Shown here one piece after another: positions 52,710-55,566 of a DNA stretch of 64,000 bases. The notes beneath the pieces are model-generated. The model was not told where the DNA came from. It saw nothing but the letters and a program-made list of their open reading frames with translations, and ran no database searches. The number at the start of each line of letters is the position of its first letter. Position 1 is the stretch's first letter. The DNA is from an uncultured Candidatus Binatia bacterium (GTDB lineage: Bacteria; Desulfobacterota; Binatia; Bin18), in assembly GCA_965200965.1 (NCBI GenBank), contig OZ241744.1:1216001-1280000 (forward strand), written 5' to 3'. The translations under genes and the position numbers were made by a program.

Positions 52710-53454
52710 CTTCTCTCCCTCCTGCCCGCAAAAGATCAGCAACGGAAAGCCAGGCGCGGGCGGCAAGGTCATTATCGGTTCCCTCCGCCATGCTGGCAAT
52801 GGAGCGCCATTTTTCAATAGCTTCCTGAATCTTTCCCTCCCGCTCCAGTGCTCTGGCGTCGGTAACATCCCGGTTTATCGGAGAATCCGCAGGAAGCGTT
52901 TGGCCACTTCCCGCAGCTTCGGCAGCCTTACGCGGAGCGCCAGCGCTCGATGCGCCTGCCACCAATTGGTCCAAACGTCTCCTCTGTAACTTGGCTTTAT
53001 TAAGTTCCGCTCTGATCTCCTCAACGAGGCTCTTGGCTTCTTCTGCGTGTTGCTTGGATTTATCCACATTCTGGCGAGCTTCGGTCTCAATCTCGCGGAA
53101 TCTCCTGAAGCTGACGTAGCCGGCAAAGACAGCGATAACACCGAGCACGGTCAGGAATATGGCTATAGCGGTAAGCCACCAATCAACAAGTTTGGTACGG
53201 CCTGCAAGAAGCTCACGCCTGAGTTCGTTGAAACGTCGCTCCCATTCAACAGCAGTGGCGGCCTCGTTCAGCGCAGGCGATGGCTGATCGGGCCTGGGTT
53301 CGTTGCCAGGCGGTTGGGGTTCGGCGGTTGCATTCGTGCCGGTAGCGGATGGCTGCGCCTGCTGGGCGGGAAGGAGGCCGGGAGCTGTGGCCGCGGCGGC
53401 AAAAGCCAGGATGACGACCACAATCACGCGCCCAATCCGTGGGTATGCCATCAT
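52693..53454 (-). CDS. Signal peptide, TM helix and coiled-coil protein ending in a TPR-like hairpin
   Basis: Hydrophobic N-terminus, WWLTAIAIFLTVLGVIAVFAGY, coiled coil, ARALEREGKIQEAIEKW; ATGA overlap with the hsdS stop. Confidence 0.75.
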   Translation of the reverse strand: MMAYPRIGRVIVVVILAFAAAATAPGLLPAQQAQPSATGTNATAEPQPPGNEPRPDQPSPALNEAATAVEWERRFNELRRELLAGRTKLVDWWLTAIAIFLTVLGVIAVFAGYVSFRRFREIETEARQNVDKSKQHAEEAKSLVEEIRAELNKAKLQRRRLDQLVAGASSAGAPRKAAEAAGSGQTLPADSPINRDVTDARALEREGKIQEAIEKWRSIASMAEGTDNDLAARAWLSVADLLRAGGREDAGDQ

Positions 53455-55151
53455 GCAAGTCTCTCCACCTGTTCCGCGGCGTCACGGACACGGATGGCAC
53501 CCGAGAGGAGCTTGGGCAGCAGGGTATCCCGGAGGGCAGCGAGGGTCCGGGATTCGTAGACATTTGCCCGGATGCGAGCGTCTATCTCTCCAGCGATTGA
53601 GTGAAAACCATCAATAACTGCCCAGTTGGGTTCTAGTGTCATCAGCGTCTCAAATTGGTTCTTGGTGATAGCGCCAAACACGGTTCCTGTGTCTTCGTAT
53701 TGTCGCAACTCCTGCTGCATTGCCCAGACCGAATGGTAGGTGAAAGAACTTGATCCCGATTGATGTCGTAACGCAGCAATTCCTCGTCCAATGCAGGATC
53801 GCCCCCAAGCCAAGTTGATATCGCCAACGGGCGCTCGAACACTCACCAGCGTGTCGTCGGGTTCGGCGAAGCGAGTTGGAGCAGCGCAATACTTCCGGTT
53901 AGTAGGATATCGGAAACCGAAATCAGCCCGTCCTTGGAAAAAAGGCAACCCCTCACCGTGTTCATTATAGGTGCTGCCCGGAGGTGATTGTCCCATTGTC
54001 AGGTTGAAGCACTCGCCGAGGGGCTTGACCGTCCACCCGGCGGGAATCGGCCCCAATGCCGAGTCTACAAAGCGATCGGGGAACACGGCTGCCGTGGCCG
54101 CATCCAGCCGGTCCAGATAGGCCCGGGCCACCGGCCATGCACTTCCCCCTGGAGACGCGCGTTGTGTGAGAGCGGCTTTGGCATGCACGGGGTCAAAGTT
54201 GATGAACCACGAGGTGAACAACGCTCGGGCCATGTCGTCGAGCGTGACGTTCATGCGCCGGTTCACCTCGATCTTGGCGTCGAGCGTGCCGAGGATATGG
54301 GCGATGGCGCGTTGCTCGGGGAGGGGCGGCAACGCTAGTCTGATGGACTTCAGCGACGTAACCGGACGACTGATTGCCGGAACACCTGTCTGTGAGGTGT
54401 TCATCAGTAGGGCGTGTTGTCCGAGCGGAGACTTGAAGAAGTAGTAGAGGAAGGCTGGGACCACCTCTGAGGCTCGACAAGTCAGTTTCATTTGGCTTTG
54501 TGAAATGACGTATCTCTGGAACGGAGTATCAGGGATCAAGCCCACTTGCCCCAATGTACCGCGGTGCGTAAAGACCAGCTCGCCTGGATAAGCGTTGGCA
54601 CTTGCTAACTGGTCCGCCTTTTCGTCGGTCAGAAAGACAAAGCTCTCGGCTCGGAACCGTCCGGCTGTGAGATTGCCCCCGCGGATTACTGGAACTCCAG
54701 ATGGAACAAAATTATCGCTCTTTATGTCCGAGCCGAACGGACCCATCGCAACCTTCTCTGCAATCTCCTCTACGCTGGTCTCGTGCCATCCGACGCGCTT
54801 GCGTTCTTCCCGTTCTGCCACCACCACATATTCCCGCTCAATCTCCCGCTGAAAGCGCTCTGGCAGGTGCGCCCAGTCGCGGGCTTCCACCAGAAAGGGG
54901 ATGGTGGACTCCCGCAGGGCTTCCCGGAAGTCAGCCAGGCGGCCGGTTGGTATCTCTTGCAGGTCCGGGCCACGCAAGACTAGGTCCAGGTCGCTGCCGT
55001 CGTGGCTCTGGCCGTTCACCCGGCTGCCGTAGGCCCAGACCTCGACGCCAGGCAGGTGTTGGCGCAGCAGGGCTGCCAACTTCTCCCGATGCCGGGGCAA
55101 CAGATGCAGCCGGTCTGCCGGCTGGGCCGGGCCGGTACGCGGCTCAGTCAT
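53451..55151 (-). CDS. hsdS: MNT nucleotidyltransferase fused to the type I specificity subunit HsdS
   Basis: N-terminal VWAYGSRVNGQSHDGSDLDLV; TRD1 (MGPFGS), LPPLPEQRAIAHILGTLDAKIE, TRD2 (MGQSP), LRDTLLPKLLSG, all in one frame. Confidence 0.9.
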   Translation of the reverse strand: MTEPRTGPAQPADRLHLLPRHREKLAALLRQHLPGVEVWAYGSRVNGQSHDGSDLDLVLRGPDLQEIPTGRLADFREALRESTIPFLVEARDWAHLPERFQREIEREYVVVAEREERKRVGWHETSVEEIAEKVAMGPFGSDIKSDNFVPSGVPVIRGGNLTAGRFRAESFVFLTDEKADQLASANAYPGELVFTHRGTLGQVGLIPDTPFQRYVISQSQMKLTCRASEVVPAFLYYFFKSPLGQHALLMNTSQTGVPAISRPVTSLKSIRLALPPLPEQRAIAHILGTLDAKIEVNRRMNVTLDDMARALFTSWFINFDPVHAKAALTQRASPGGSAWPVARAYLDRLDAATAAVFPDRFVDSALGPIPAGWTVKPLGECFNLTMGQSPPGSTYNEHGEGLPFFQGRADFGFRYPTNRKYCAAPTRFAEPDDTLVSVRAPVGDINLAWGRSCIGRGIAALRHQSGSSSFTYHSVWAMQQELRQYEDTGTVFGAITKNQFETLMTLEPNWAVIDGFHSIAGEIDARIRANVYESRTLAALRDTLLPKLLSGAIRVRDAAEQVERLA

Positions 55152-55566
55152 CGCCCGCTTCCTCAATGGCCGCGGCCAGTGCTCTGGCGTCCGTGATGAA
55201 GGTCGGCAGAAGCCGCAGGGTGGTTTCTGCAAAATCCTCGCCGTAGTCGTGCGCGGTGTCGTTGCGGTTGTCGCGGTACTGGAGCCAGCGTTCGGCGGCG
55301 TCGGCGGGGATCAGGCCGTGTTTGGCGGCATGACGGAAGATGTCCTTGAAGATCAGGCGGTCGGCCTGCTGGTTGCTGGCGAACCAGGGGCGCAGGCGCT
55401 TCTTGAGCAGCTTGCCGCTCTGTTCCAGCACCAGTTCAAACTCTTTGACACAGGCGGCACGGTAGATGTCGTAGGCGAACCCCTCCGAATCAGCGCTTTT
55501 GAGCGTGTTGAAGGCGACATCCAGCGTATCAATACAACGCCTCAGATGATCGGTGTTGATGGGCAT
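55144..55566 (-). CDS. HEPN domain protein (HI0074-like), putative RNase toxin
   Basis: ACVKEFELVLE, FKDIFR, RNDTAHDY (RX4HXY); overlaps the MNT-hsdS start. Confidence 0.9.
   Translation of the reverse strand: MPINTDHLRRCIDTLDVAFNTLKSADSEGFAYDIYRAACVKEFELVLEQSGKLLKKRLRPWFASNQQADRLIFKDIFRHAAKHGLIPADAAERWLQYRDNRNDTAHDYGEDFAETTLRLLPTFITDARALAAAIEEAGDD

What the first reader, a model, noticed from the sequence alone, without database searches (positions are those of the whole stretch)
53451..55566. HEPN toxin whose MNT antitoxin is fused to the type I R-M specificity subunit: a candidate guarded restriction system
Seen: a HEPN gene with intact RX4HXY (RNDTAHDY) lies between hsdM and hsdS and overlaps the next start codon. 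That next ORF has an intact MNT motif (GS-x10-DLD) in about its first 110 aa and continues in frame into a complete two-TRD HsdS. Known: in HepT/MntA pairs the MNT neutralises the RNase by AMPylating the Tyr of RX4HXY, and PrrC is a HEPN nuclease kept latent by type I EcoprrI until phage Stp perturbs the enzyme. Inference: tethering the antitoxin to HsdS could make toxin silencing depend on an intact R-M complex, giving abortive-infection backup against anti-restriction proteins or addiction to the locus. I know of no characterised example, but cannot exclude one.
Basis: partly seen in the sequence, partly recalled or inferred. Interest (0 to 1): 0.88.

Follow-up and report, generated by a model that had tools for sequence, protein, structure and literature searches.

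The report
Antitoxin fused to restriction specificity subunit
A toxin-antitoxin pair sits inside a DNA restriction operon and its antitoxin is fused to the DNA-recognition subunit; this join has been gained or lost repeatedly across bacterial phyla and is likely a hitch-hiking, hard-to-reverse fusion rather than a built-in alarm, though a dependence of the antitoxin on the methylase remains possible and testable.

Summary
In detail: hsdM, an HI0074-type HEPN gene (RX4HXY intact), a 566-aa MNT::HsdS fusion (GSX10DXD intact, two TRDs), two cargo genes, hsdR. Contigs from three studies bridge the junction without indel. The fusion is a family: 118 of the 120 best long MNT relatives carry an HsdS domain, and cultured Zymomonas mobilis ATCC 10988 has one. 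The PrrC-like guard reading is poorly supported. Identical operons with MNT and hsdS separate are common (Acetobacter plasmids, 11 environmental loci). Fusions do not form one clade (AU p=2.5e-5) and their linkers are unrelated. MNT also fuses to HsdM or to another MNT. 16 of 40 fused loci lack an intact HEPN. HEPN-MNT pairs survive decay of hsdS. This genome holds two MNT-free hsdS paralogues that share TRD2 alleles with strain variants of the fusion. Best reading: an embedded type VII cassette fused by loss of an overlapping stop/start, then locked in once hsdS lost its own start (0.6). Weak hint for more: full fusions without intact hsdM rarely keep a live HEPN (1 of 7 vs 35 of 48), which fits HsdM-dependent antitoxin stability (0.2). 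Not found in print. New variant; interest 0.5.

The parts
55712..57352 (-). hsdM, type I methyltransferase subunit (546 aa)
   Evidence: PF02384 and PF12161; PADLOC MTase_I E 7e-211
55642..55696 (.). Palindromic copy of a dispersed ~50-bp genome repeat between hsdM and HEPN; predicted hairpin
   Evidence: (z -2.9); not shown to regulate the locus
55144..55566 (-). HI0074-type HEPN, predicted RNase toxin, RX4HXY = R101..H106..Y108
   Evidence: PF08780 63 bits, cut-off 31.8; 1jog; R101 and Y108 invariant, H106 in at least 90% of 31 aligned relatives
54816..55151 (-). HI0073-type MNT domain (aa 1-112), predicted adenylyltransferase antitoxin, G42 S43 D54 D56, further acidic E89 and D92
54792..54815 (-). 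Linker (aa 113-120), low confidence in the model, no in-frame ATG/GTG/TTG; three GTG codons just upstream (aa 109-111) are the only candidate internal starts
53451..54791 (-). HsdS part (aa 121-566): TRD1, central conserved region, TRD2, C-terminal conserved region; both TRDs differ between strain variants
52693..53454 (-). Cargo gene, predicted TM/coiled-coil protein (253 aa), no family above cut-off
51651..52868 (-). Cargo gene, TPR-repeat protein (405 aa from the first start; the real start may lie later)
48424..51654 (-). hsdR, type I restriction subunit, HindI-like (1076 aa)
   Evidence: PF04313, PF11867; TIGR00348 above cut-off

Best explanation
This is a HEPN-MNT (type VII, HI0074/HI0073-type) toxin-antitoxin cassette embedded in a type I R-M operon, whose antitoxin gene is fused in frame to hsdS; the fusion likely arose by loss of an overlapping stop/start, and the MNT likely works as a self-contained antitoxin that does not report on the state of the restriction enzyme. 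Shown: the fusion, its spread, its repeated gain or loss, unfused versions with ATGA/GTGA overlaps, unrelated linkers, and TRD exchange behind a constant MNT head. Inferred: the MNT domain binds the HEPN dimer and AMPylates Y108, as in HepT/MntA; HsdS tolerates the N-terminal load and assembles with HsdM and HsdR normally. Once hsdS loses its own start codon, undoing the fusion needs a new ribosome site and start, so the fused state accumulates like a ratchet. The dependence is then lopsided: damage to the MNT reading frame also removes HsdS, whereas a stop behind the MNT frees a working antitoxin. The cassette therefore rides on the R-M locus, is co-expressed with it and may act as an independent second defence or addiction module.
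For: Unfused state in the same position: L026, L030, L037, L070, 7 metagenome loci, Acetobacter plasmids against fused Zymomonas pZMOB01 with 65% identical HEPNs. One clade of fused MNTs is rejected (22 vs 17 hand-picked rows, p-AU 2.5e-5; starred branches force at least 4 changes); on the 156-row quick tree starred branches force at least 5. Linkers are 3-35 aa (one 149) and unrelated; 28 of 42 have no in-frame start and only 3 have a start with an SD-like site. Fusion partners follow position: MNT::HsdM in L234, MNT::MNT::HsdS in L006, L034, L062 and several listed proteins; HsdS of this family also takes a large central insertion (PF04480 on such long forms). 16 of 40 fused loci lack an intact HEPN, against 7 of 26 free loci (Fisher p 0.30). 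Intact HEPN persists with split or short hsdS (L006, L012, L028, L033) and after R-M decay (L184, L241, L242, L256, L268). Two MNT-free hsdS paralogues in this genome share the conserved regions (88-90% DNA) and TRD2 alleles (98-99%). Complex model: score 0.74, best control 0.00 (mark reached by 116 of 157 solved, 2 of 215 mismatched pairs; contacts agree at least 66%, pLDDT at least 80); named contacts lie at MNT residues 50-54 and 80-87; a like complex is solved (8xeh), so the pass may be from likeness. An HsdM-HsdS fusion is active (PMC6158711), so the HsdS N-terminus tolerates cargo. The slots between hsd genes carry many unrelated defence genes (bioRxiv 10.1101/2024.01.29.577857).
Against: The fused state is far more frequent than the adjacent state among R-M-linked sponge-symbiont loci (40 fused vs 13 unfused), which selection could explain as well as a ratchet. 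In the Pseudomonadota sample 10 of 11 fused loci keep an RX4HXY HEPN. Full fusions without an intact hsdM keep an intact HEPN in 1 of 7 cases against 35 of 48 (p 0.005; 0.08 without three solitary copies). The MNT head is 91-99% identical across strain variants whose TRDs are replaced. No activity was measured.
Confidence: 0.6

Rival explanations
1. HsdS acts as an addiction tag: the fused antitoxin would stay folded and stable only when assembled with HsdM, so loss, titration or disassembly of the methylase core would deplete MNT and let newly made HEPN go unmodified. This works like a toxin-antitoxin-chaperone system with HsdM as chaperone.
For: Fused loci with broken or absent hsdM: HEPN intact in 1 of 7; with intact hsdM 35 of 48 (p 0.005). 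Unfused loci with decayed hsdM: intact in 10 of 16 (p 0.07 against the fused group). Most linkers lack an internal start (28 of 42), so MNT is made only as the fusion. Poor solubility of free HsdS is recalled, not from a call. TAC principle: abstracts' opening lines only (PMC5105189, bioRxiv 10.1101/2024.02.24.581848).
Against: The groups were listed by hand after seeing the data, the loci are not independent, and general decay predicts the same trend. Without the three solitary copies p is 0.08 and 0.28. L079 has a frameshifted hsdM with an intact HEPN. A stop behind the MNT escapes the dependence. Covalently modified HEPN would stay silent, so only new toxin counts.
Confidence: 0.2
2. PrrC-like guard: HEPN is held latent on the R-M complex through the tethered MNT and is released or left unmodified when a phage anti-restriction protein binds the complex.
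For: Gene position matches prrC; PMC3710099 proposes that the PrrC logic extends to R-M-linked HEPNs generally; the three-part order recurs in several phyla with intact motifs.
Against: Unfused and free versions are common (35 of 47 matches in four family or order samples have no long frame). HEPN is lost or degenerate in 16 of 40 fused loci. PrrC has a sensing ABC-ATPase; this HEPN is a bare 140-aa domain. The linker is unconserved and predicted flexible. No de-AMPylation route is known (PMC7641770). MNT-free HsdS paralogues could build unguarded complexes in the same cell.
Confidence: 0.1
3. The tethered MNT has a second target: it would nucleotidylate an Hsd subunit or a phage protein, with HEPN dispensable.
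For: GSX10DXD is kept in 40 of 40 fused MNTs, including those without an intact HEPN; pairwise dN/dS is about 0.2 in that group too; fusions to both HsdS and HsdM exist.
Against: The loci were collected with patterns from the MNT motif, so its conservation is built in. Pairwise dN/dS at dS above 1 mostly records past selection. Several HEPN-less copies lie in genomes with another complete locus.
Confidence: 0.07
4. Assembly error or one-off read-through that joins two separate genes.
For: Unfused versions exist with a one-frame offset at the same place.
Against: Junction bridged without gaps in three studies; 118 of 120 best long relatives have the same architecture; RefSeq has it in Zymomonas.
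Confidence: 0.01

Closest known systems
Class I HEPN/MNT (HepT/MntA, type VII TA; PMC7641770), HI0074/HI0073 subgroup; characterised relative: Legionella HEPN-MNT (PMC11586414; PDB 8xdj, 8xeh)
   Same: RX4HXY and GSX10DXD motifs, PF08780/PF01909 pairing, short MNT without the long C-terminal helix, predicted docking through the MNT alpha2-beta3 loop region (same loop named in PMC11586414 Discussion)
   Different: MNT carries a whole HsdS at its C-terminus; toxin gene comes first; the pair sits inside hsdM-hsdS-hsdR; below the NCBIfam HepT and MntA cut-offs
PrrC with EcoprrI (type IC R-M guard; PMC3710099, PMC12707154)
   Same: HEPN-family RNase encoded inside a type I hsd operon
   Different: No ABC-ATPase sensor; has a dedicated enzymatic antitoxin; not confined to R-M loci; latency by the R-M complex is not shown
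Defence genes embedded in type I R-M operons (guilt-by-embedding, bioRxiv 10.1101/2024.01.29.577857)
   Same: Same-strand cargo between hsd genes; neighbours include ATPase-nuclease pairs, Sir2-HerA, Schlafen, Fic, HicA, MazF; the MNT weakly matches PADLOC candidate PDC-S09 (E 8.6e-5)
   Different: The cargo is translationally fused to a core subunit; no such fusion in the passages I saw
Toxin-antitoxin-chaperone (TAC) systems (PMC5105189; listing and abstract start only)
   Same: Possible analogy: an antitoxin with a C-terminal extension that needs a partner to stay folded
   Different: No SecB and no ChAD element; the extension is a functional 446-aa subunit; dependence untested
PADLOC model PDLC03138 'Type I specificity subunit'
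   Same: Its first ~100 positions match MNT domains (E 6.7e-30 for the Zymomonas MNT, 1.6e-9 for the window's), so such fusions are already among catalogued S subunits
   Different: The model is labelled only as a specificity subunit; the MNT and the upstream HEPN are not noted

Membership tests
Class I HEPN/MNT (type VII TA) | HEPN of PF01934 or PF08780 with RX4HXY | tested here: met
   PF08780 above cut-off, RNDTAHDY
Class I HEPN/MNT (type VII TA) | Neighbouring MNT (PF01909) with GSX10DXD | tested here: met
   PF01909 23.7 bits, cut-off 21; G42-S43-x10-D54-L-D56
Class I HEPN/MNT (type VII TA) | NCBIfam HepT / MntA equivalog cut-offs | tested here: not met
   20.6 and 26.2 bits against 60; TIGR01987 50.7 against 55.8. 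It belongs to the HI0074/HI0073 branch, not the HepT/MntA equivalogs.
Class I HEPN/MNT (type VII TA) | MNT binds HEPN | tested here: inconclusive
   Model supports it: 0.74 vs best control 0.00; a like complex is solved, so it may reflect likeness
Class I HEPN/MNT (type VII TA) | HEPN toxicity and Tyr AMPylation | not testable with these tools
   Needs expression and mass spectrometry
Type I R-M specificity subunit | Two TRDs with two conserved helical regions | tested here: met
Type I R-M specificity subunit | Intact hsdM and hsdR in the operon | tested here: met
Type I R-M specificity subunit | Directs methylation and restriction of a bipartite site | not testable with these tools
   No methylome data on hand; TRD exchange among strains is indirect support
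PrrC-type R-M guard | N-terminal ABC-ATPase fused to the HEPN | tested here: not met
   140-aa single-domain HEPN; no PADLOC match
PrrC-type R-M guard | Almost always embedded in type I R-M | tested here: not met
   26 of 79 close MNT loci are free of an intact hsd context; 35 of 47 unfused in family samples
PrrC-type R-M guard | Activation by anti-restriction proteins | not testable with these tools
   Needs Ocr/ArdA/Stp challenge
TAC system | SecB-like chaperone gene | tested here: not met
   None among the six locus proteins
TAC system | Antitoxin stability depends on a partner | tested here: inconclusive
   Genomic proxy only: 1 of 7 vs 35 of 48, weakened when solitary copies are removed

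The most novel reading that the evidence does not exclude
The HsdS half is an addiction domain: the antitoxin works only inside an assembled HsdM2-HsdS methylase, so an RNase toxin monitors assembly of the restriction enzyme and kills or stalls cells whose methylase core is lost, out-competed or dismantled by a phage. This would be a widespread, repeatedly evolved guard on type I R-M built by gene fusion, with a restriction subunit serving as chaperone.
Probability: 0.25. Interest if true: 0.85.

Novelty: new variant of a known kind. Interest (0 to 1): 0.5.

Why it matters
The fusion is widespread (five phyla by record titles, a sixth by a protein name) yet hidden, because databases call it simply 'restriction endonuclease subunit S'. 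Anyone deleting or swapping such an hsdS to improve transformation would also remove a predicted antitoxin. Nature supplies a matched pair in cultured, harmless bacteria, fused in Zymomonas mobilis ATCC 10988 pZMOB01 and split on Acetobacter plasmids, which makes the 2013 proposal that R-M-linked HEPNs act as PrrC-like backups directly testable. If the passenger reading holds, it is a clear case of a fusion fixed by a ratchet; if HsdM dependence holds, it is a new way to guard restriction enzymes.

Tried and rejected
Literature searches for the fusion found no description: HEPN+nucleotidyltransferase+HsdS (4 papers, 2 opened, hits irrelevant), and 105 (0 papers). Passage searches in PMC3710099, PMC2794190, PMC2701414, PMC7641770, PMC13000451, PMC12914056 and the embedding preprint showed no MNT-HsdS fusion. 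Figures are not held; the PMC3710099 supplement was only an index page; the preprint's supplements were not seen; subscription papers such as Songailiene 2020 and Lehmann 2003/2005 were not seen. These may bear on novelty. The Z. mobilis ZM4 plasmid hsdS deletion (PMC8432527) looked like a ready test, but that locus has another gene order (hsdR-hsdM-x-hsdS) and no nucleotidyltransferase is mentioned; I did not inspect its sequence. Pairwise dN/dS was about 0.2 for MNT in all three classes, with dS above 1, so it does not discriminate. The careful 156-row tree did not finish; the quick tree is poorly resolved (17 of 147 branches starred). My HsdS profile was built from the same long hits, so its 120 of 120 match is circular and I use the precomputed Pfam column instead. 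No RNA holder was listed. No sigma-70-like promoter was found in 53000-57900. Cluster look-ups gave one name for ten proteins. The 50%-cluster profile search could not be run, so there is no full census of the family. Earlier findings of this scan held nothing on this fusion.
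Full report
OBSERVATION. The minus strand carries hsdM (55712-57352), a 140-aa HEPN gene (55144-55566), a 566-aa ORF (53451-55151), two cargo genes and hsdR (48424-51654). The HEPN is of the PF08780/HI0074 type with R101-NDTA-H106-D-Y108. Its stop overlaps the next ATG by 8 nt. The 566-aa protein starts with an HI0073-type MNT (G42-S43-x10-D54-L-D56) and continues through an 8-residue linker into a complete two-TRD HsdS. 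Contigs from 3 of 4 laid runs, from three studies, bridge the junction without gaps; one may be the source sample.

A FAMILY, NOT AN ACCIDENT. With the MNT alone as query, 1137 of 2598 candidate proteins of 311-991 aa scored E at most 0.001; of the 120 listed, 118 carry PF01420 (the other 1017 were not seen). Stand-alone relatives are also plentiful (1835 of 1875 candidates). In the 80 best GTDB loci, 79 MNT copies scored over 150 bits: 40 fused, 13 unfused in or near hsd genes, 26 free. Record titles of fused loci span Binatota, Rhodothermota, Pseudomonadota, Acidobacteriota and Gemmatimonadota; one protein is named from Verrucomicrobia. The best DNA holders with a habitat label are sponge metagenomes. 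This top-80 set favours fusions. In four family or order samples 12 of 47 matches lie in frames over 500 aa, and three of the four centres were chosen for having one. In 400 Pseudomonadota genomes, 10 held 11 fused matches; their handles fall at intervals of four, so they probably come from one subgroup and 2.5% is not a phylum rate. Ten of these 11 have an upstream HEPN with RX4HXY; the eleventh is near a contig end. Zymomonas mobilis ATCC 10988 pZMOB01 encodes hsdM-HEPN-MNT::hsdS-hsdR (WP_014466388/9), annotated only as 'restriction endonuclease subunit S'. Acetobacter plasmids carry the same operon with MNT and hsdS separate; the HEPNs are 65% identical.

HOW THE FUSION ARISES. In unfused loci the MNT stop overlaps or abuts the hsdS start (ATGA or GTGA in L030, L037, L070, L102, L104, L106, L120, L125, L127), so one frameshift or lost stop joins them (inference). 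Linkers of 42 fused loci are unrelated and 3-35 aa long, one 149; 28 contain no in-frame start codon and 3 have one with an SD-like site. In the window the linker has none, but three GTG codons in the last MNT strand could serve. Fused MNTs cannot be held in one clade (39 hand-picked rows, p-AU 2.5e-5), and one starred clade of 7 holds 4 fused, 2 adjacent and 1 free copy. The tree cannot tell gains from losses. Partners follow gene position: MNT::HsdM in L234 and MNT::MNT::HsdS where a second cassette landed upstream (L006, L034, L062). The slots between hsd genes hold many other defence genes (55 proteins scanned, chosen from 238 ORFs), as described in bioRxiv 10.1101/2024.01.29.577857 (passages).

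THE LOCUS IN THIS ORGANISM. The genome has one HEPN-MNT pair of this kind and two solitary MNT-free hsdS genes with 88-90% DNA identity to the window's conserved regions. Four close variants of the fusion keep the MNT (91-99% identity over the searched region) but replace TRD1, TRD2 or both; their TRD2 equals that of one or the other solitary copy in three cases (98-99%), and laid contigs show TRD2 replaced in populations. The fused gene is thus the expression site of a shuffled specificity system, which suggests that it is a working HsdS (inference). An engineered HsdM-HsdS fusion is active (PMC6158711, passages).

TESTING THE GUARD IDEA. Of 40 fused loci, 22 have an intact cognate HEPN, 2 an intact HEPN of another type, 12 a degenerate one and 4 none; free loci 19 of 26 (p 0.30). 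Intact HEPN persists where hsdS is split or short behind the MNT (L006, L012, L028, L033; L001 is cut by its contig end and L018 has a degenerate HEPN), and HEPN-MNT pairs remain among ruins of hsd genes in congeners and elsewhere. So the toxin does not enforce an intact hsdS. The complex model puts a HEPN dimer on the MNT (0.74 vs best control 0.00; 116 of 157 solved and 2 of 215 mismatched pairs reach the mark; contacts agree at least 66%; pLDDT at least 80), with named contacts at residues 50-54 and 80-87. PMC11586414 (abstract and first part of the Discussion) names the alpha2-beta3 loop as a docking site in the Legionella pair, so the pass may reflect likeness. PMC7641770 (passages) shows covalent Tyr adenylylation and leaves de-adenylylation open; a guard would have to act on newly made toxin. 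PrrC has an ABC-ATPase sensor that this HEPN lacks (PMC3710099, PMC3632139, PMC12707154; passages). PMC3710099 already proposes that PrrC logic extends to R-M-linked HEPNs in general.

THE RESULT AGAINST MY READING. Among full fusions, HEPN is intact in 35 of 48 loci with intact hsdM but in 1 of 7 with broken or absent hsdM (p 0.005); unfused loci with decayed hsdM keep it in 10 of 16 (p 0.07 against the fused group). Without three solitary copies from genomes that have another complete locus, p is 0.08 and 0.28 (lists written by hand; seven duplicates and contig-cut loci left out). The loci are not independent and general decay predicts the same trend. It still fits a model in which the HsdS half makes the antitoxin depend on HsdM, as chaperone-addicted antitoxins depend on SecB (listing and abstract starts only; insolubility of free HsdS is recalled).

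VERDICT. Most likely (0.6) an embedded class I HEPN-MNT cassette fused to hsdS by position and locked in by loss of the hsdS start, with the MNT acting on its own. HsdM-dependent antitoxin 0.2; direct PrrC-like guard 0.1; second MNT target 0.07. No description was found, with figures, supplements and subscription papers unseen; a PADLOC specificity-subunit model already contains the MNT unlabelled. It is a new variant of known kinds with a ready natural test pair; interest 0.5, 0.85 if the addiction-tag model holds.

Noticed in passing
L161:6293-7648 (-) and L162:6859-8208 (-), own genome: Two solitary, MNT-free hsdS paralogues with no hsdM or hsdR beside them; their TRD2 alleles turn up in strain variants of the fused gene, so they look like donors or trans-acting specificity subunits. 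The L162 copy is followed by a probable TIR-TPR gene related to the window's TPR cargo.
   Followed up: partly
window 57371-57426, 55642-55696, 56631, 60560: A ~50-bp palindromic repeat with at least 38 genome copies, found between genes and in frame inside coding sequences, including an insertion in this hsdM.
   Followed up: partly
L019, L020, L030, L037, L056, L061, L063, L067, L215, L216, L250, L251: A HEPN lineage, mostly in Acidobacteriota, that stays full length but has replaced both RX4H and the acceptor Tyr while the MNT motif stays intact; it occurs fused, adjacent and free.
   Followed up: partly
L234:3755-5692 (+): MNT fused to the N-terminus of HsdM, behind its own HEPN, followed by a second HEPN and an MNT fused to an hsdS remnant.
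   Followed up: partly
L006, L034, L062, L068; P0007, P0009, P0017 and others: Tandem MNT::MNT::HsdS proteins built from two different MNT subfamilies, a record of cassettes stacking in the hsdM-hsdS slot.
   Followed up: partly
L015:7749-9959, L187:7454-9748, P0045, P0047: MNT::HsdS proteins with a large domain inserted in the central conserved region; PF04480 (DUF559) is listed for such long forms.
   Followed up: no
L036, L041, L062, L075, L084, L191; free loci L025, L057, L059, L064, L077: Short duplicated or leftover 3' ends of hsdM directly upstream of the HEPN, suggesting cassette exchange by recombination at the hsdM end.
   Followed up: partly
window 52693-53454 and 51651-52868: Low-GC3 TM/coiled-coil gene overlapping a TPR-repeat gene between hsdS and hsdR; no family above cut-off for the first.
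   Followed up: no
window 57861-62362: A biotin synthesis cluster by inspection of translations (bioF-, bioA-, bioD-, bioB-like; labels recalled, not scanned).
   Followed up: no
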